Below, piece after piece: positions 3,470 through 52,300 of a DNA stretch of 64,000 nucleotides. The position numbers and the translations under genes are program-made. The DNA lies in NCBI RefSeq assembly GCF_036321535.1, contig NC_087436.1, positions 14,632,001 through 14,696,000 on the forward strand, in the 5' to 3' direction. Numbering within the stretch: position 1 is the first letter of the stretch; each line of letters begins with the position of its first letter. The stretch is from Camelus dromedarius (taxonomy: Eukaryota). Under the pieces are notes generated by a model. That model ran no database searches and had not been told where the DNA came from. It worked only from the letters and a program-made list of their open reading frames with translations.

Positions 3470-4535
3470 TTACAATAGTTCCTAGTCTACAACATAGTGA
3501 TTCAGTATTTTTATAGATTGTTTCATTTAAAGTTACTGTAAAATAACAGCTATATTTCCCTGTGCTATATAATACATCACTGTTAACTTACCTTATACAT
3601 ACTAGTTTGTATCTCTTAATCCCCTACCCCATCTTGCCTCTACTCCCTTCTTTCTCCCCCTTGATAGCTACTACTTTGTTTTCTGTATCTGTGAGTCTGT
3701 TTCTGTTTTGTTATATTCATTCATTTTATTTTTTAGATTCCACATATAAATAACAGACAGTATTTGTCTTTCTCTGTCTTATTTCACTAAGCATAATACC
3801 CTCTAGGTTGATCCATGTTGTTGGAAATGGCAGAATTTCATTCTTCCTTTTTCCTTTTTTTTTTCAATTGAAGTGAGTCAATTACAGTGTGTCAATTTCT
3901 GATGTACAGCAGCACGGTGTCCCAGTCATGCATATACATATATCTGTTTTCATATTCTTTTCAGAAATTCATTCTTTTTTATGGCTGAATAATATTCCTC
4001 TCCCTGTGTGTGTGTGCACGTGCACATGCACGCGCACACGCACACACACACACCCCCCACATCTTTTTTTATGCGTTCATCTATTGATGGACACTTAGGT
4101 TGCTTCCGTATCTCGGCAATTGTAAATAATACTGCTGTGAACGTTGGGGTGCATATATCTTTTCGAATTAATGGGTTTTTTTTTGATTTTTGTTTTTTTT
4201 TCAGATATATATGTAGGAGTGGAATTGCTGAGTCATACGGTAGTTCTATTTTTAGTTTTTTTGAAGAACTTCCATACTGTTTTCCATAGTAGCTGTACCA
4301 GTTTGCATTCCCATCAACAGTGTACTAGGGTTCCCTTTTCTCTACATCCTTGCCAGTTTACATTATTTGTAGACTTTTTGATGATGGCCATTTTGACAGG
4401 TGTGAGGTGATATCTCATTGTGGTTTGAGTTGTGTTTTCTGATGATTAGCAATGTTGAGCATCTTTTTTAGAAGCCTGTTAGCCATCTGTATGTCTTCTT
4501 TGGAAAAATGTTTACTCAGATATTCTGCCCGTTTA
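3470..4535 (-). mobile_element. LINE-1 3' fragment (ORF2 end + 3'UTR) with a nested younger insertion
   Basis: Antisense L1 hallmarks: gatggacacttaggttgcttcc, ggagtggaattgctgagtcatacggtagttctatttttag, ggccattttgacaggtgtgaggtgatatctcattgtgg. Confidence 0.92.
3846..3961 (-). mobile_element. Short 5'-truncated retroposon (L1 3' terminus) nested in L1
   Basis: T-rich tail at left. Flanked by cagaatttcattctt (3831-3845) and cagaaattcattctt (3962-3976), a 15-bp TSD with one mismatch. Confidence 0.8.
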
Positions 4536-8751: not shown

Positions 8752-9168
8752 ATTTTAACACCTATATTGTGATATGATTCCTGTACAGCAAACCACACAT
8801 ATTTCAGATGTACAATTTGATGAATTTTGATAGATGTATACACCAATGAAATCACCACCACAATCAAGATAGCTAACATTTCCATCACTCCCCAAGGGGT
8901 GCAATTTTCGAATTCTCAGTTTATCCCTTCCCACCCTCTTTACTTACTGGTAACCATAAGTTTGTTCTCTATGTCTGTGAGTTTGTTTCTGTTTTGTAGA
9001 TAAGTTCTTTCTGGCTTTTTTTTTTTTTTCAAGATTCCACATATGATTGATATCATATGGTGTTTTTCTTTCTCTTTCTCACTTACTTTACTTAGAATGA
9101 CGATCTCCAGGTTCATCCATGTTGCTGCAGATGGCATTATTTTCTTTTTTATGGCTAAGTAGTATTCC

Positions 9169-9225
<57 letters not shown>

Positions 9226-9628
9226 ACACACCACATCTTCTTTATCCAGTCATCTGTTGATGGACATTTGGGTTGTTTCCATGTCTTGGCTATTATAAAT
9301 AGTGCTGATATGAACATTGGGGTGCGTATGTCTTTTCGAATTATGTTTTTCTCTGGGTATATGCCCAGGAGTGGGATTGCTGGGTCATATGATAAGTCTG
9401 TTTTTAGTTTTTTGAGGAATCTCCATACTGTCCTCCACAGTGGCTGCACCACTTTACATTCCCACCAGCAGTGTAGGAGGGCTCCCTTTTCTCCACACCC
9501 TGTCCAGCATTTATCATTTGTGACTTTTTAATAATGGCCATTCTGCCTGGTGTAAGGTGATAGATACCTCATTGTAGTTTTAGTTTGCATTTCTCTAACA
9601 ATCAGTGATGTTGAGCATCTTTTCATTA
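8752..9628 (-). mobile_element. 5'-truncated LINE-1 with TSD and well-preserved ORF2 C-terminus
   Basis: Minus-strand [19 protein letters not shown]...[12 protein letters not shown]...[31 protein letters not shown] is the L1 ORF2p C-terminus. Direct repeat ggattcctaaattt at 8738-8751 and 9629-9642. Confidence 0.96.
9171..9222. repeat. (TG)26 microsatellite inside L1
   Basis: Perfect dinucleotide run. Confidence 0.98.
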
Positions 9629-20259: not shown

Positions 20260-20710
20260 AAGTAAACATGCTTGATATATAAAATTTGAGAAATATGGTA
20301 AAAAATAAATTAAAGCACCTATCTTACAACTGCCCAAATGCAGTGTATATTTTGAATTGTTGTCTTCTATCTAGTCCTTATACAGCTTGAAAGTCATGCT
20401 ATGATTATATAATTTCCTGCATTTTGCCCTTAGGGTAGTGTAATATAATCATCCATGTTTTGATTCACAGATTTTTTAAATGAACATCATGTTTAGGGAT
20501 TGCACCATAAATGTATTTAATTTCATGGGTTTCTTTGTCTTGAACATTTGGGTTTTGATTATTTGAATTTATGTTTATTTTTATTTTTTGCGTTTGTGAA
20601 TAAAGCAGCAGTGAGCATTCTCTGCATAATTTTTTTTCTGTTTTAGGATTACTTCCTTAGGATAGATTGCCAGAAGTGGAGTTACTGGGTCAGAGGGTAT
20701 GAACTTACGA
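20260..20710 (-). mobile_element. Ancient L1 (L1ME-like) 3' fragment hosting the 50-nt exon
   Basis: gaacatttgggtt...aataaagcagcagtgagcattct...ttccttaggatagattgccagaagtggagttactgggtcagagggtatg aligns by eye to the antisense L1 segments at about 9265-9390 and 47160-47292. Confidence 0.75.
20647..20696 (+). other. FBXW7: 50-nt non-coding 5'UTR exon of FBXW7alpha (upstream exon of circFBXW7)
   Basis: Acceptor ttttttttctgttttag|G, donor AGG|gtatga at 20697. 50+570 = 620 nt, the size I recall for human circFBXW7, and the junction-spanning ORF is exactly 185 aa. Confidence 0.88.
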
Positions 20711-20849
20711 ACTTTTTTCTTTTCTTTTTTTTTTTTGAAATAAAATTTTTATTTATTTGATGTTCAGTTGATTTATATTCATTGTGAAAAGTGAAAATTA
20801 TAATGATTATATTTGATACCTGTCAAAAAACTGTCTAAAGACAAGCTTC

Positions 20850-21040
20850 TGTGATAAGTTTGGGAAATTCCTAAAATTTAAAAAAAAAAAGCCTTTTTAT
20901 CTTGGTTTATCTCAGCATTTCCTGAACTTAACTGAGCAGTGAATAGTTTTTTGTGATACACTTTTTAGCATTTTGTGGAAGTACCCTTTTTAACATTTTG
21001 TGGAAGTTTTACAAAGGTTATAGTTTATGAACTACTGATC
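20850..21040. mobile_element. hAT-Charlie (Charlie4-like) non-autonomous fragment
   Basis: ataagtttgggaaat...cagcatttcctgaactta...atagtttatgaactactg. Confidence 0.45.
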
Positions 21041-21369
21041 TAAAATTTAAAATTGTTTTACAGGGTAGATTATGTTTTATTGGTCAAAGCAACTAAATTA
21101 AACTGTAACCTTTGTTCTAAAATTATTTTAAAAAGGAGATTAAAATAAAGCTGTTTACTATATGATTTTGTGTATATCTTTATAAAGTCTCATAACTTTT
21201 ATAATGTAAATGTTCTGTATTGATTTCCTAAAGAACATCTTAATGCCTCAGGGGCATCAGATACTTTTTATAATCTTTAATGAAATTTGGAATATAGACA
21301 TATAACATAAAAGTAAAAGATAATGTAGATTGTATAAACCTTTTTCTCGCCCCCCTTTTCCCCCTGCAG

Positions 21370-21939
21370 AATGTGAAAACCTTTGCATCTTCTGATAGTC
21401 TAGCCAAGGTTCAAGAAGTAGCAAGCTGGCTTTTGGAAATGAATCAGGAACTGCTCTCTGTGGGCAGCAAAAGACGACGAACTGGAGGCTCTCTGAGAGG
21501 GAACCCTTCCTCAAGCCAGGCAGATGAGGAACAGATGAATCGTGTGGTAGAGGAGGAACAGCAGCAGCAGCTAAGACAACAGGACGAGGAGCACACTGCG
21601 AGGAATGGTGAAGTCGTTGGAGCAGAACCTAGACCTGGTGACCAAAATGATTCCCAGCAAGGACAATTGGAAGAAAACAACAATCGGTTTATTTCCATAG
21701 ACGAGGACTCCTCGGGAAACCAAGAAGAACAAGAGGAGGATGAGGAGCATGCTGGCGAACAAGATGAGGAGGATGAAGAGGAGGAGGAAATGGACCAGGA
21801 GAGTGATGACTTTGATCAGTCTGATGACAGTAGCAGGGAAGATGAACATACACATAGTAACAGTGTCACAAACTCTAGTAGTATCGTGGACCTGCCTATT
21901 CACCAACTCTCCTCCCCGTTCTATACAAAGACAACAAAA
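21370..21939 (+). other. FBXW7: Full 570-nt FBXW7alpha exon (69 nt 5'UTR + 501 nt CDS)
   Basis: Strong acceptor cctttttctcgcccccttttccccctgcag|A (AG 21368-21369) and donor gtgagt at 21940. Confidence 0.95.
21439..21939 (+). CDS. FBXW7: FBXW7 alpha-isoform-specific first coding exon, coding part (codons 1-167; partial CDS that splices to shared exons beyond the window)
   Basis: Translates to MNQELLSVGSKRRRTGGSLRGNPSSSQADEEQ...DLPIHQLSSPFYTKTTK, the recognisable FBXW7alpha N-terminus (KRRR NLS, SQ motif, E/D/Q-rich tract). 501 nt = 167 codons, ending at phase-0 donor AAA|gtgagt (GT at 21940). Confidence 0.98.
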
Positions 21940-22054
21940 GTGAGTACATTTAGTCTGCTGTTCACCTGAGAAATTTGACGTATCTATATTAATTGTAGTG
22001 AAACTTTCCTCACAATCTTTGTATTACTGCAGAATTAATCTTCAGATGTGTAGT

Positions 22055-22060
22055 AATAAA
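22055..22060 (+). terminator. Candidate intronic polyadenylation signal downstream of the alpha exon
   Basis: AATAAA about 115 nt past the donor, followed by a T/GT-rich tract (gatttttgtttta). In-frame TGA at 21967-21969 lies before it. Confidence 0.45.
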
Positions 22061-31519: not shown

Positions 31520-33362
31520 ACATCCATGTGCAGGTTTTGTTGTAGGCATTTTCAACTCCTTTGGTTAAATACCAATGAGCATGATTGCTGGGTCGTATGG
31601 TAAGGATATTTTAATTTTGTAAGAAATTGCCAAACTGTCTTCCAGAGTGACTGTACCATTTGCATTCCCACCAGCAATGAATGAGAGAGTTCTGTTGCCA
31701 GCATTTGATATTGTTAATGTTTTGGATTTTGGCAATTCTAATAGACGTGTAGTGGCATTTCATTGTTGTAAGTCTTCAGCATGTCCAAGGTCATCTACGT
31801 TTTCTTCTATATTATCTTCTAGGAGTTTTATAGTTTTGTGTTTTACATTTAGGTCTATGATACATTTTGAGTTAATTTTGGCATGTGCATGTCTGGTTGT
31901 TCAGCTCCATTTGTTGAATAGACAGACTGTTTCATTGTATTGCCTTTGCTCCTTTGTCAAAGATATTTATGTAGGTCTGTTTCTGGGCCCTTTATTTTGT
32001 AAATTTTTTTTTTTTTTTTGTATCCACAACATCTTTCTCTACTTTTATAGGGTAACCTATGAAATTCATTGTTGGATAGCTTTTCTCTGTTGATTACAAC
32101 CCTGGTGTATAGGTTGGGTATGTAACATTAGGCAGAGTTGTGTGCTGAAAAGAATAGGAGGTAAGAAGTCCTATCTGCTCTCTCTCACCATCTCCTTGAG
32201 CTCATTTCTTCATCATTAAACTAGGAATATGGTACCTGTTCTTATTGCAAATGGTTGTGTAGAGTTTAAATGAGGTAATGAATGTGAAATGCTTTGCAAG
32301 TTTTAAAAGGCTGTGCAAACATATGATGTGATCATTTTTATTGACCTCGTTATGTCCATGTAAGATGACATGGTCATCAGCAAGGCAGGGATTTATCCAG
32401 TGTTGCTCTTGCATATTTTTTCTTATTCATTTACTTTACTGGGTTTCTTTTTCCCGTGTCAAGATTTGCATCTTTGTTCTTGTGATCAGTGAGAGATTCC
32501 TTCCAACGTGATGAGGTAAACCTAAATGGTGATAAGCTCATTATTACAAGCTACAAGACCTACTTATTGCTGAGAAATGCTTGCACATTATCAATAAAAC
32601 AAGTTTGGAAAGGAAAATGAGGACATTTTGTTCTTTTGATCCATTTGTCTATTTGTTTACCAGTACCACACTGTCTTGATTATGGTAGCTTTATATTAAT
32701 CCTTGAAGTTGAATGGTGTCAGTCCTCTGACTTTGGTCTTTTCTTTCAATATTGAATTGAGTATTCTGGGTCTTTTGTCTCTCCATATAAACTTTAGAAT
32801 CAGCTTATCAGTATCCACAAAATTACTTTCTTGGATTTTAGTTGGGATTGCATTGAATCACATCAGATGGTGAAAAACTGACATCTTGACAATAATAAGT
32901 CTTCATATCTAAGAACATGGACTCTCTATCTCTCCATTTAGTTAGTTCTTTATCTTTCATCAGAGTCTTGCAGTTTTCCTCATACAGATCTTGTGCTTAT
33001 TTTGTTAGATTTATGCCTAGGTGTTTCATTTGAGGGGGTGCTATTGTAAAGGATAACATGTTTTTAATTTCAAATTCACTCGTTCATTGCTGATATATAG
33101 GAAGGTGGTTGACCTTTGTGTATTAACCTTTTATCCTGTATCCTTGCTATAGTCGCTTATTAGTTCCAGAATTTTTTTTTGTTGTTTTTGTTGTTGATTC
33201 TTTCTGATTTTCTTCATAGATGATCGTGTCATATGTGACTAAATTATTTCTTCCTAATGTACATGTTCTTTATTTTCTTTTCTTGCCTTACTGCGTTAGC
33301 TAGGATTCCCAGTACAATATTGAAATTAGTGAGACAAGACATCCTTGCCTTGTTCCTGATCT
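31520..33362 (-). mobile_element. LINE-1 (ORF2/3' region, internally deleted), interrupted at 32001-32624
   Basis: Antisense ORF2 phrases tctaggagttttatagttt, ccagtaccacactgtcttgattatggtagcttt, ttgggattgcattgaat, gacatccttgccttgttcctgatctta. Confidence 0.9.
32001..32624 (-). other. Retroposed non-L1 sequence (poly-A tail, short TSD) inserted in L1
   Basis: T16 at 32004-32019. attttgt at 31994-32000 and 32625-32631. L1 text resumes in register either side. Contains a MIR-like piece at about 32195-32325. Confidence 0.7.
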
Positions 33363-46724: not shown

Positions 46725-47550
46725 TTAGTTGTTTATTTTTTTTATTGAAACAATTTTTATTATAATTAAATACCTATAACATAAAATTTACTATTTTAAT
46801 CATGTTTAAGTGTATAATTCAGTGATGTTAAGTATATTCACAATGTTGTGCAACCATTACCACTGTCTCCAGAAATTTTTTCTTTTCCAGCAGAAATTCT
46901 GTACCCATTAAGCACTAACTCCTCATTCCTTTCTCCCTCTAGCTCCTGGCAACCATCATTCTACTTTCTGTCTATAAATTTAACTACTCTAGGTACCTCA
47001 TATAGGTGAAATCATACAAAATTTATCCTTTTTTGACTAACTTATTACACTTAGCATTATGTCTTTAAGGTTCATCCACGTTGTGTCAGAATTTCCTTCC
47101 TTTTTAGGCTGAATAATATCCCACTGTATGTATGTACCACATTTTTTTCCATCACTGGTTACTTAGGTTGTTTCCATTTCTTGACTATTGTGAATAATGC
47201 TGCTTTGAACATGGTTATACAAATATCTGTGTGTGTGAGCCCTTCTTTCAGTTCTTTTGGTTGTATACCCAAAAGTGGAATTGCTGGATCATGTAGTAAT
47301 TTTTTTGAGGGAACTATATTTTCCATAGTAGCTACATCCATTTTGCATTCCCACCAACAGTGCACAAGGGTTCTAGTTTCTCTCCATCTCTGCCAATGCT
47401 TATTTTTCTCTGTGTGTGTGTTTAAATAATAGCCATATTAATAGGTATGCATTGTGGTTCTGGTTTTGATTTGCATTTCCCTAATGAGTAGTGATACTGA
47501 GCATCTTTATGTGTGCATATTGATCATTTATATATCTTCTTTGGAGAAAT
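46725..47550 (-). mobile_element. LINE-1 3' end (L1MA/MB-like)
   Basis: Minus-strand peptide HCWWECK...[17 protein letters not shown]...MFKAALFTIVKKWKQPK (ORF2 C-terminus) plus 3'UTR. Confidence 0.94.
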
Positions 47551-48799: not shown

Positions 48800-49161
48800 C
48801 CTAGGTTAGTCACTGGAGAAGTTTTCAGAGGGACCCTACAGCCCAGCCCTGCTGTGGTTGTATTCACATTACTGACTGTGCATGGGAGGCTCACCAGCTG
48901 TCTGACTGGCAGGAGCAGGAGCTTCACTTCAGTAGTTTATAATTCCTGGCTATTCTAGGATAGTTTGCACTTCACCAAGCCTCAGACAGGTCAGGACACT
49001 TGGTAGGAGAAGGTTGAAAGACAAAAGCAGCAGGCCTTGGGTTCTCAGCCTTTTTTTTTTTTTTTAATTCGGAAGTTGTATTTTATTTTGGTGGTTAGAG
49101 TTTTTAGTAATGTGCCTGTATTACATGTAGAGAGTAATCATCAGCCAAGAGGAATTTTAAA
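48800..49161 (+). promoter_or_regulatory. Putative internal promoter and 5'UTR of FBXW7 gamma
   Basis: Repeat-free, locally GC-richer stretch directly 5' of an alternative first exon. E-box CAGCTG 48895-48900, TATA-like TTTATAA 48936-48942, T15 49051-49065, ETS-like CGGAAGT 49070-49076. TSS not determinable. Confidence 0.6.
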
Positions 49162-49308
49162 ATGTCAAAACCGGGAAAAGCTACTCTAAACCATGGCTTG
49201 GTTCCTGTTGATCTTAAAAGTGCAAAAGAGCCTCTACCACATCAAACTGTGATGAAGATATTTAGCATTAGCATCATTGCCCAAGGCCTCCCTTTTTGTC
49301 GAAGACGG
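49162..49308 (+). CDS. FBXW7: FBXW7 gamma-isoform-specific first coding exon (49 codons; partial CDS)
   Basis: MSKPGKATLNHGLVPVDLKSAKEPLPHQTVMKIFSISIIAQGLPFCRRR, then phase-0 donor CGG|gtaagt at 49309. Matches the known gamma N-terminus. Confidence 0.96.
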
Positions 49309-52300
49309 GTAAGTCTCACACGTTTGAAAAATGGAAATCTTTATTTAAATGAACTGCTTCTGCCTCCTTTGGTGGAGAAATGCTTCAACTTTCAATTGCT
49401 GCTTACAACAGAAACTATCAGTGCATTATATAGCCAGTGAAAACTTATCTAAATGATAGTTTTAATAATATGACAGAGAACCTTGAGGGCAAGGTTACCC
49501 AATTCACCTTTTTGTCTCTTTCATTTATTTTTATGATATTAGAATTCTTTAAACTTACTTAAAGTTGGCAAATGTAAAAAGTAGGTTTTGAAATATGTTG
49601 GCAAATACTAAACACCCAAATTCGTGGTTTTTATTTTGTGGTAAAAGCAAAAAAGCTGATGGTACTGTCCTTATGCGTGGGAATTGCAACATTTAGCTCT
49701 TTTTTCAAGAGTTTATCTGGTACTTTAAACTGTAATATTTTCAAATCACTATTTCTTAAATTCAGACTTAATAGAGATATTACTTTTGCTGTTATACAAA
49801 ATAAAAATAGCATGCTATTGTGTGGCAGTTACGAATCAGTTTATATATAGACAATCCTGAACTAACAAACATTTTGGAGAACTCGTGCTTATCTGTAATC
49901 AGGTTATGATCTATTGAATGTTTTTCAGGATGACATTCTCCTACTCCCCACCAAGTTTTGACCTTGTTAATATTAACAGTTTTGTTATATTTTCTGAGTT
50001 ACTTGGTATTGCCATTTTGAATTACTAGCTAAAGCGATATATTTTTAGATCTTAAATGTGTTTAGTATCCTGAACACACTAAACCAAAAAAATATAAAAT
50101 AAAAAACCTGTTGGAGACTGAGTATTTGCATATATCAGTGCTATTAGTGTTTTAGTTCCCTTTTTAATTCCCCACCCCCTTGCTTTTTTTTTTTTTTTAA
50201 CTAAAAGGGAAACATTCTATTAATCAAGTAGGTTAACTCCTAACTCTCTAACTCCTAAGAAATCTTCCTCCTCCTTAGTAAAGAGAATCTTCTATTTGCT
50301 GGGACTTAAATAGCTTTTGTGAAAATATGTTTTCTAGTTACCTTAGTTCTTTTTGAATTGTTTCTGCTTCTACTCTAAATGAGTGGTGGCCATGTTGAAT
50401 ACATTTTGAGTGAGTTTTAAATGTAATACAGTTTCAACATTGAAAATAGAATATAAGTATCTCTGTCACACTCCTATTTTCTTCTTTACTATGTTTTCAA
50501 TAAGTGTTTCTTTTATTTTGTCTTCTTTCACTTTGTCACTTTTCTAACTTCTGAATGAGGTCTGTGCTCTGATTTAAGCATTTACACAGAGGCCTCTAGT
50601 AGCTTTAAAGTCATTACTAAACTAATTTATTGTTTTAATACTTCTATGAAAGAAAATACCAATAGAAGTAAATTTTTGAATTAAGGAAAAGAAATGTAGA
50701 TTTTTTTTAATTAAAGAGTTAAGATACTAACACTCAAGATAATTTTGTTCTTTCTTATTGAATATCTCTGATGGCCTTAAGTACAGTACATGGTAGATTA
50801 TGTATGTTTTCTGTCTTCATCTTTTTAACAACTACATGAAACTTAAAAGGCTCAGGAGCAGATTCTATGAGAAAAATTAATAGAGAACTTCAAGGCTTTC
50901 CCTCAGGGCTTCCTAGGGTCACTGTTCAGTTTGACTTTTCTAAGTTACTGTTATATTAAATTATAGCCTTGCATTGATAATAATGTAATATAATAATATA
51001 TTAATGCAATGTAATAATATTTGAAAAAATAAAATTCAAACTAGAACGTTTGTGGGAAGATAGTTAAAAAATAAAATTAACACATTGAGTTTTAGACTGC
51101 CTGCCAATACTTTACTATTGCATAACTCATTGACTCTGACTACTAGAAATGTTAGAGGGATAGTGTAATTATATCCTCTCCCCTCCTTTTTGCAGCTGGT
51201 TAATTTAGGTAGCTTTAAATTGATTCACATGCTCTTTGTTATTTAATTTACTAACCTTCCTTTGGTAATGTTAGTTAGACATTTTTAGTGCATTTTTATC
51301 AAAGATTTAAAGAAGACTTTTTTTGTGTGATATGTAGTTAATCATATTTTGTATCTAATATCTAATATGCCTTTCACATTAGGCATGTTTAGCTTGTTTG
51401 AGTCAGACTGTTACACACTGACAACGAAGTATACAGACTTCTCTATTTTTTAGGCCATTTTTTCCCTACCAAGTAGTGAGCTAATATATAGTGATCTCTC
51501 ACAAGACTGTATGTAGTCTTGACCTATTAAAATTTGAAAAACGTGTTATTGCCTCTCCATCCATCATAGGGGTTGATCCATTTAATGTTACACAATGAAA
51601 TAATTTTGAAAATTTTGAAAAATTCTGTAAAATGGTTGTTATAACTACAACTTCAGTTTGTAGCTCTTCAAATGTTTTCAGGAAATTTATTTACTTCACT
51701 GTTAAGTATAATATTAGTCCTGGTAGTCTATGTTATTAGCATGTGGATTATTTTGGTTTCTCATCAGAGATATATAAGTCCTATAGGTAATTCTTAGTTT
51801 CAGGAATATTTGAGAATACTTGTTGAGTATATAACTTTATTCTAAAAGAACTGATTGTCCTTTAGAGGAAGAGAAGATTTATAGGAACTCACTTACATAA
51901 AATCACTGGAAAATTGTTTTATTTTTCTTTGAAGTTGAAATAGCTAATTAGGATAATACTGTATTTCCTAAATCCTAAGGTACGTCATTATTCTACATTT
52001 TAAACACATAAGTAAGGGTACATCTTGATGGAATTTCATAGCTTATCCTACAGCATTTTTTCTTTCTAGTAATAAGAGAAGGAATGTACTTTATGATTAA
52101 TAGTAGTGTGTTAAAGAATTTACTTCAATGCTTAAACCTCATTTATTAAGTCATTTTGGTTTTGTTTGGAGACTTTTAAACATTTAAAATATTCTCACAA
52201 AGTTATCCTTCAATGTTCATATTTTGGTAGAAATTTCCAAATGACATACAACTAGTGGTTTATATAGGGCTTTTAAAGATGTCTGCTTGATTGTGCTGGT

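What the first reader, a model, noticed from the sequence alone, without database searches (positions are those of the whole stretch)
20647..21939. circFBXW7 / FBXW7-185aa coding capacity is intact in this non-primate genome
Seen: the 620-nt circle reads 167 alpha codons, crosses the back-splice into GAT TAC TTC CTT AGG ATA GAT TGC CAG AAG TGG AGT TAC TGG GTC AGA GG|A ATG TGA (DYFLRIDCQKWSYWVRGM*), and stops at TGA 21374-21376. That is exactly 185 aa. Known (recalled): human circFBXW7 is 620 nt and was reported to encode FBXW7-185aa, a USP28 decoy that lowers MYC. Inference: identical lengths and an open junction frame in a probable camelid point to selection on the circular ORF or on the RNA.
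Basis: partly seen in the sequence, partly recalled or inferred. Interest (0 to 1): 0.7.

Follow-up and report, generated by a model that had tools for sequence, protein, structure and literature searches.

The report
FBXW7 circle frame: conserved by-product
This camel gene could encode the same 185-residue circular-RNA protein reported in humans, but the match is best explained by an old LINE-1 fragment and by constraints on the ordinary linear messenger RNA, not by selection for that protein.

Summary
The arithmetic holds: exons of 50 and 570 nt, a 620-nt circle, 185 aa, stop at 21374-21376. The protein match points to Camelus. Cross-species conservation of this ORF was already claimed in the original human paper.

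Three findings weaken the inference of selection on the circular ORF:
1. The 50-nt exon is an antisense LINE-1 ORF2 relic. The junction frame is in register with ORF2, and unrelated copies read almost the same peptide.
2. The circle's stop is the out-of-frame shadow of Val-Lys codons of a 74-aa N-terminal FBXW7 extension conserved from teleosts to mammals.
3. The 119-nt leader matches human at every visible base, silent positions included (by eye). That points to RNA-level constraint.

The exon is under selection: the intact frame is common under neutrality (P 0.19-0.37), but this identity is not. No reads were laid, so the circle is unproven in camel. Published Ribo-seq and proteomics do not support translation in human. 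The proposed MS peptides cannot tell circle from linear mRNA. Known feature, with unreported anatomy.

The parts
20599..20707 (-). Old LINE-1 relic (C-terminal part of ORF2) lying antisense to FBXW7; contains exon A
   Evidence: 17 dispersed copies at 73-92% identity cover this span. 13 of these 17 loci have an ORF2p-like tblastn hit within 400 nt, against 0-1 in 10 shuffles. The probe used is 2e-49 to solved LINE-1 ORF2p. The antisense in-register reading of the exon aligns to ORF2p 1168-1183, but alone only at E=1.6.
20631..20646 (+). T-rich tract and AG acceptor of exon A (back-splice acceptor of the human circle)
   Evidence: Sequence. AG at this place in 5 of 17 repeat copies.
20647..20696 (+). 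Exon A, 50-nt 5' leader exon (human 'exon 3'); encodes 16 codons plus 2 nt of the circular tail
   Evidence: 45 of 45 positions visible in human primers and probes are identical (by eye). Unnamed protein P0020 begins with the exon A/exon B junction reading, so A is joined to B in at least one other transcript assembly.
20697..20702 (+). Donor of exon A, already present in the repeat
   Evidence: GT at this place in 9 of 17 repeat copies.
21370..21939 (+). Exon B, 570-nt FBXW7 alpha exon; phase 0 at both ends and open along its whole length
   Evidence: Homologues named FBXW7.
21370..21438 (+). 23 codons upstream of the alpha ATG, conserved as protein (part of a 74-aa N-terminal extension)
   Evidence: 22-23 of 23 residues identical in all 16 full-length extended isoforms held. 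Recognisable in teleost and shark proteins.
21371..21376 (+). ATG-TGA: last codon and stop of the circular ORF; a start-stop element in the linear leader; the +1 shadow of the Asn-Val-Lys codons of the extension
   Evidence: NVK in 36 of 40 proteins carrying the leader motif, NAK in 4 teleost proteins.
21439..21939 (+). 167 codons of the FBXW7 alpha N-terminus (no F-box, no WD40)
   Evidence: No significant Pfam family.
21940..22060 (+). Donor of exon B (back-splice donor). If unspliced, the frame reads 9 more codons to a stop (176 aa), followed by AATAAA at 22055
   Evidence: A 176-aa isoform of this form is annotated in deer (P0032).

Best explanation
This is the camel orthologue of the FBXW7 alpha 5' region, and the intact 185-aa circular frame is a by-product of three separate constraints.
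(1) The 167 codons are kept by the normal alpha protein (shown).
(2) The first 69 nt of exon B, which include the circle's last codon and stop, are kept because they encode part of a 74-aa Cys-rich N-terminal extension. That extension starts in an upstream phase-0 exon and is conserved from teleosts to mammals (protein conservation shown; expression in camel inferred).
(3) The 50-nt exon arose by exonisation of an antisense LINE-1 ORF2 relic. The relic already supplied the donor, a near-ready acceptor and an often-open in-register frame (shown). It was then frozen at the nucleotide level, most likely as a splicing or translation control element of the linear 5' leader (inferred).
Back-splicing of the two exons probably happens, as in human (inferred, not shown here), giving an AUG-type circRNA that is poorly or not translated.
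For: - Repeat origin. Two unrelated copies (L003, L004) give open, near-identical tails. The circular frame is open in 8 of 17 copies, against 0 and 3 of 17 for the other two frames.
- Extension: an open 51-codon exon ends AAG|gt in phase 0 at G000:C1:14624411-14624563. 48 longer homologues include ~780-aa isoforms of bats, dog, seal, sheep, gibbon, lizards, crocodile and owl, plus teleost hits. A spliced copy on C37 ends exactly at its donor.
- Ten proteins called from a start at the Val position, one of them amphibian-like, imply the GTG codon and so the same out-of-frame TGA (inference from gene-caller behaviour).
- RNA-level constraint: by eye against human primers, 0 of 31 degenerate third positions differ in the visible leader (45 of 50 nt of A, 57 of 69 nt of B), against 7 of 35 in 104 visible nt of the alpha coding part (one-sided Fisher about 0.009, by hand).
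- FBXW7 alpha 5'-UTR exon choice changes translation efficiency (PMC3498124).
- For this circle an independent reanalysis lists 0 in-frame and 1 out-of-frame Ribo-seq reads and no peptides (PMC6487579 Table S7 row). AUG circRNAs as a class show conserved UTRs without codon-level signal.
Against: - The LINE-1 origin explains where the frame came from, not why it survived. Only 4 of 17 copies, and 1 of 17 kept out of 23 flank-ascertained copies, retain both the 50-nt length and an open frame.
- The frozen 119 nt are the same stretch that Yang et al. call an IRES, so RNA-level constraint is also compatible with circular translation.
- For exon A alone the silent-site contrast is weak (0 of 13 versus 7 of 35, about p 0.09 by hand).
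- Only one species pair could be compared, on primer-covered bases.
- Yang et al. report antibody and MS detection of the protein and knock-down phenotypes.
- The leader has no unusual folding energy (z -0.9), so the RNA-level function is not identified.
Confidence: 0.65

Rival explanations
1. The circle is really translated and useful. Selection keeps the 119-nt leader as an internal entry site and keeps a stop soon after the junction, so that a truncated alpha N-terminus (USP28 or XRCC4 decoy) is made. The tail sequence itself is incidental.
For: The frozen stretch equals the reported IRES. The circle is abundant in human (35,965 reads). Functional reports exist. All needed elements are intact here.
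Against: No in-frame Ribo-seq reads or peptides in reanalysis. The junction peptides came from plasmid-transfected cells, and such constructs can be translated from linear by-products (PMC7544230 abstract). A linear 176-aa read-through isoform could give a similar band with an N-terminal antibody (such an antibody was used on tissue samples). 69 of the 119 nt have an independent coding explanation.
Confidence: 0.22
2. The 18-residue tail itself is under purifying selection as peptide.
For: No amino-acid change from human at the visible positions. Most repeat copies have lost length or frame.
Against: No excess of silent change, as peptide-level selection would allow. The tail is close to what unrelated LINE-1 copies read. 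The stop is dictated by another frame. The one rat Fbxw7 circle seen is a single-exon circle of about 588 nt without exon A (PMC11961807 supplement rows; this does not show that the two-exon circle is absent in rat). None of 92 proteins held carries the tail.
Confidence: 0.08
3. Nothing is selected: the frame is intact by chance.
For: P(same tail length) is 0.19-0.37 under assumed neutral divergence of 0.15-0.35.
Against: P(45 of 45 identical) is at most 0.001 under the same settings. Human intronic primers next to these exons do differ from the window (by eye).
Confidence: 0.03

Closest known systems
Human circFBXW7 (hsa_circ_0001451) / FBXW7-185aa (Yang et al., PMC6019044)
   Same: Same two exons, 620 nt, 167+18 residues, same junction peptide over the 10 residues published in text. 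The paper already states that the ORF is conserved among species (its figure was not seen).
   Different: Circle and protein are not shown in this species. The intron between the exons is 673 nt here against 607 in human. The passages read do not mention a LINE-1 origin of the exon or the upstream coding frame within the 'IRES'.
AUG circRNAs (Stagsted et al., PMC6487579)
   Same: Holds the annotated start codon plus 5' UTR, has a short tail after the junction, a highly conserved UTR without codon-level pattern, and no inverted repeats between the flanking introns.
   Different: Here part of the 'UTR' is coding in a longer isoform and part is an exonised LINE-1 piece.
Exonised antisense LINE-1 fragments in 5' UTRs (general class, recalled)
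   Same: Antisense orientation, T-rich acceptor, splice signals largely present in the repeat family.
   Different: Unusually strong sequence freezing; it also serves as a back-splice acceptor in human.
Predicted ~780-aa FBXW7 'isoform X1' models in NCBI/UniRef
   Same: Upstream 51-codon exon joined in phase 0 to exon B.
   Different: Database predictions only; no paper found on this isoform. The 5'-RACE study found no new ORF among seven human leader forms.

Membership tests
circFBXW7 / FBXW7-185aa | Exons 3 and 4 of 50 and 570 nt with canonical splice sites | tested here: met
circFBXW7 / FBXW7-185aa | Junction-spanning ORF of 185 aa with the published junction peptide | tested here: met
circFBXW7 / FBXW7-185aa | Back-spliced RNA exists in this species | tested here: inconclusive
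   Runs holding the locus were found but no reads were laid (one search gave no data); no camel report among the 10 listings
circFBXW7 / FBXW7-185aa | Protein made from the circle; binds USP28 | not testable with these tools
   Human literature conflicts
AUG circRNA | Contains the annotated start codon and 5' UTR sequence | tested here: met
   the human circle is labelled AUG circRNA
AUG circRNA | No inverted repeat pair in the flanking introns | tested here: met
   0 reverse-strand blastn hits at E<=1e-3 between window 1-20600 and 21960-49100, against 5 same-strand hits; the upstream intron beyond the window was not examined
AUG circRNA | UTR conserved without codon-level signal in the circular frame | tested here: inconclusive
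   Direction fits (0 of 13 silent sites changed), but one species pair, by eye
Exonised LINE-1 relic | Dispersed genomic copies | tested here: met
   17 copies among 18 matches (a lower bound)
Exonised LINE-1 relic | Homology to LINE-1 ORF2p | tested here: met
   13 of 17 loci against 0-1 shuffled; probe tied to solved ORF2p; the exon's own 24-aa reading alone reaches only E=1.6
Exonised LINE-1 relic | Subfamily assignment (an old L1M type is suspected, recalled) | not testable with these tools
   No repeat library was available
N-terminally extended FBXW7 isoform | Open upstream exon with ATG, phase-0 donor, in frame with exon B | tested here: met
N-terminally extended FBXW7 isoform | Protein-level conservation | tested here: met
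   69-100% identity over 48 hits, teleosts to mammals
N-terminally extended FBXW7 isoform | Transcript from the upstream ATG joined to exon B in this species; protein detected | not tested
   Only donor use is shown, by the spliced copy on C37, which enters the exon at an internal acceptor downstream of the ATGs

The most novel reading that the evidence does not exclude
FBXW7 has an undescribed, vertebrate-wide isoform with a 74-aa extension that begins with a cysteine cluster and an amphipathic basic helix (7 Cys in 51 aa; highest hydrophobic moment at residues 12-23). It is plausibly lipid-anchored, sending the ligase to membranes. In mammals a LINE-1-derived 50-nt exon was recruited as a frame switch. 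Skipping it gives the 781-aa form. Including it turns the upstream frame into a 69-aa uORF that ends in the very tail attributed to FBXW7-185aa and stops 63 nt before the alpha ATG, favouring alpha by re-initiation. The famous circular junction peptide would then be a shadow of this linear switch.
Probability: 0.25. Interest if true: 0.65.

Novelty: already known. Interest (0 to 1): 0.3.

Why it matters
FBXW7-185aa is one of the most cited examples of a protein from a circular RNA, and conservation of its ORF is used as support. The anatomy here shows that each piece of that conservation has another explanation. It also shows that tail peptides and N-terminal antibodies cannot separate the circle from linear products (a possible 69-aa uORF, a 176-aa read-through form). 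It points to a conserved, apparently unstudied N-terminal extension of a major tumour suppressor, with a repeat-derived exon placed to switch it off. The camel sequence by itself adds one more intact orthologue.

Tried and rejected
- Read-level test of the back-splice: 24 runs were listed, 20 holding the locus, but produced no data. Circle formation, exon A inclusion and use of the intronic poly(A) site in this species remain open.
- Orthologous DNA from other mammals: the metagenome scan with exon B protein had 584 pattern matches and 0 confirmed. The genome has no relatives on file. So no multi-species dN/dS was possible.
- Linear 69-aa product in protein databases: the near-length search gave 2 hits, both fish upstream-exon products without the tail. 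0 of 92 proteins held carry it. Short eukaryotic ORFs are poorly covered, so this is weak.
- Retrocopy of exon B or of the back-splice junction: none among 18 matches; the only exon-B hit is a short acidic stretch.
- Unbiased repeat control: 23 flank-ascertained loci, 17 kept (at least 30 of 50 identities, length 45-55), 6 dropped. Most carry indels, so 'frame open in 9 of 17' there is not a like-for-like count and is not used. The 17 copies were picked by similarity to the exon and are biased towards it.
- RNA structure of the leader: z -0.89 and +0.64, nothing unusual.
- Extension: no Pfam family, no usable Atlas hit.
- Bovine paper PMC12553243: FBXW7 appears only in a reference and as a protein in one table; 12 of 23 supplements searched.
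- PMC6016044 was a wrong identifier, an unrelated paper.
- Earlier scan findings: none.
- Supplements not seen that may bear on the claims: Supplementary Figure 1 of PMC6019044 (species alignments, an image), the mouse sheet of Table S2 of PMC6487579 (cut), and the exon tables of PMC3498124 (unreadable).

Full report
Observation. The window holds the 5' coding region of FBXW7. Exon A is 20647-20696 (50 nt) and exon B is 21370-21939 (570 nt). Circularised they give 620 nt. The ATG at 21439 reads 167 codons, crosses the junction, reads 18 more and stops at 21374-21376: 185 aa. A Camelus ferus protein is identical over exon B (P0085), so 'camelid' is fair. All of this is coding capacity read from DNA. 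Runs holding the locus exist (20 of 24 listed), but no reads were laid, so the circle is not demonstrated in this species.

What is in print. Yang et al. (PMC6019044; passages, supplementary legends and primer table seen, figures not) report the 620-nt circle, the 185-aa ORF, an IRES in the 120 nt before the ATG and USP28 competition. They state that the ORF is highly conserved among species. Their junction peptides came from plasmid-transfected cells. Stagsted et al. (PMC6487579; passages and supplement rows) class it as an AUG circRNA with 35,965 reads, 0 in-frame and 1 out-of-frame ribosome reads, and no peptide found. They show for the class that tails are as long as chance predicts and that UTR conservation has no codon pattern. 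Ho-Xuan et al. (PMC7544230, abstract) warn that circRNA plasmids are translated from linear by-products. Liu et al. (PMC3498124, parts 1-3 of 5) show that FBXW7 alpha leader exons are alternatively spliced and change translation efficiency. A 2026 paper (PMC13018996, passages) adds a DNA-repair role, in the passages seen from tagged constructs and knock-down.

Exon A is a LINE-1 relic. A search of the genome returned 17 dispersed matches to the exon and its flanks at 73-92% identity. Read on the minus strand in register with the circular frame, the exon gives a peptide that aligns to LINE-1 ORF2p residues 1168-1183 (E=1.6 alone). The link is made firm through the copies. A LINE-1 fragment from the window that matches solved ORF2p at 2e-49 hits 13 of the 17 loci next to the match, against 0-1 after shuffling. 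So the tail of FBXW7-185aa is the antisense, in-register reading of ORF2. In the 17 copies that frame is open in 8, the other two frames in 0 and 3, and two copies read nearly the same peptide. A GT follows the segment in 9 and an AG precedes it in 5. These copies were selected by likeness to the exon. Against the reading that the frame survives easily, only 4 of 17 keep both length and open frame, and only 1 of 17 kept among 23 copies picked by their flanks. The repeat explains the origin of the frame and splice sites, not their preservation. A search for FBXW7 with exonised/L1ME/circFBXW7 found 0 papers holding three of the terms.

The stop belongs to another frame. The 23 codons of exon B before the alpha ATG are conserved as protein: 22-23 of 23 residues in all 16 full-length extended isoforms held, and NVK at the exon start in 36 of 40 proteins with the motif (NAK in 4 teleosts). 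They continue a 51-codon exon found 28.8 kb upstream of exon B, which starts at an ATG and ends in phase 0. It is annotated in predicted ~780-aa isoforms of mammals, lizards, crocodile and birds, and is 69-75% identical in teleosts. A spliced copy on contig C37 ends exactly at its donor, so the donor has been used, though that copy enters the exon downstream of the ATGs. The circle's last codon and stop are the +1 reading of the Asn-Val-Lys codons. Ten proteins called from a start at the Val position, one amphibian-like, imply the same Val codon and so the same out-of-frame stop in a lineage that should lack the mammalian repeat (inference). Because the upstream exon and exon B both end in phase 0 on a lysine, a linear transcript that includes exon A after the upstream exon gives a 69-aa product with the identical tail and identical tryptic peptides. 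No such product was found in the protein searches, which cover short ORFs poorly. Paper searches for the extension found nothing relevant.

What is selected. Human primers and probes in the supplement cover 45 of 50 nt of exon A and 57 of the first 69 nt of exon B. By eye all are identical to the window. They also cover 104 nt of the alpha coding part, with 7 differences, all at third positions. Degenerate third positions differ at 0 of 13 (exon A, circular frame), 0 of 18 (extension frame) and 7 of 35 (alpha). One-sided Fisher by hand is about 0.09 for exon A alone and about 0.009 for the leader. A simulation with assumed neutral divergence of 0.15-0.35 keeps the tail length in 19-37% of runs but gives 45 of 45 identity in at most 0.1%. 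So the intact ORF is weak evidence, the frozen bases are strong evidence, and they point to the RNA rather than the peptide. The leader has no unusual fold and the flanking introns within the window share no inverted repeat. The one rat circle seen is single-exon (PMC11961807, two supplement rows).

Mechanism and odds. Most likely (0.65) exon A is an exonised LINE-1 piece kept as a control element of the linear leader, and the 185-aa frame rides along on it, on the alpha exon and on the extension. A translated, useful circle with an incidental tail remains possible (0.22), since the frozen stretch is the reported IRES. Selection on the tail peptide (0.08) and pure chance (0.03) fit poorly. The boldest reading (0.25, compatible with the best explanation) is that exon A is a frame switch between a membrane-directed 781-aa FBXW7 and the alpha form.

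Verdict. The value of this visit lies in the repeat origin of the junction peptide and in the overlooked upstream frame. Interest 0.3.

Noticed in passing
L026:1501-1653 (G000:C1:14624411-14624563, about 7.4 kb before the window): Upstream coding exon for a Cys-rich 51-aa segment, in frame with the alpha exon. It is annotated only as predicted isoforms and conserved to teleosts; no paper found.
   Followed up: partly
L027:1291-1576 (G000:C37:72620954-72621249): A spliced copy of four FBXW7 5' exons (C1:14599424, 14622644, 14623330, 14624507), 88-93% identical and in linear order. It begins at an acceptor and ends at a donor, and sits between two high-copy LTR-like sequences with no poly(A) next to it. 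Recalls LTR-flanked circRNA-derived pseudogenes (recalled), but shows no back-splice order.
   Followed up: partly
window 21370-21939: Exon B alone is a multiple of three and has no stop, so a single-exon circle would carry an endless frame. Single-exon circles are listed for human (33 reads) and rat.
   Followed up: no
window 21940-22060: Intron read-through gives a 176-aa alpha fragment with AATAAA at 22055; the same form is annotated in deer.
   Followed up: partly
L068:1501-1575: One of the upstream leader exons appears to end at a GC donor, judged from the junction in the C37 copy.
   Followed up: no
window 49138-49440: Open frame holding another FBXW7 first exon starting MSKPGK (isoform name recalled as gamma).
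   Followed up: no
window 3666-4376, 8943-9527, 31556-31721, 47000-47404: Further antisense LINE-1 ORF2 3' fragments in the FBXW7 introns.
   Followed up: partly
P0005, P0006, P0013 (Oryx, an unnamed source, goat): Diverged FBXW7-like proteins in bovids that look like retrocopies of the alpha form; no such copy was found in this genome.
   Followed up: no
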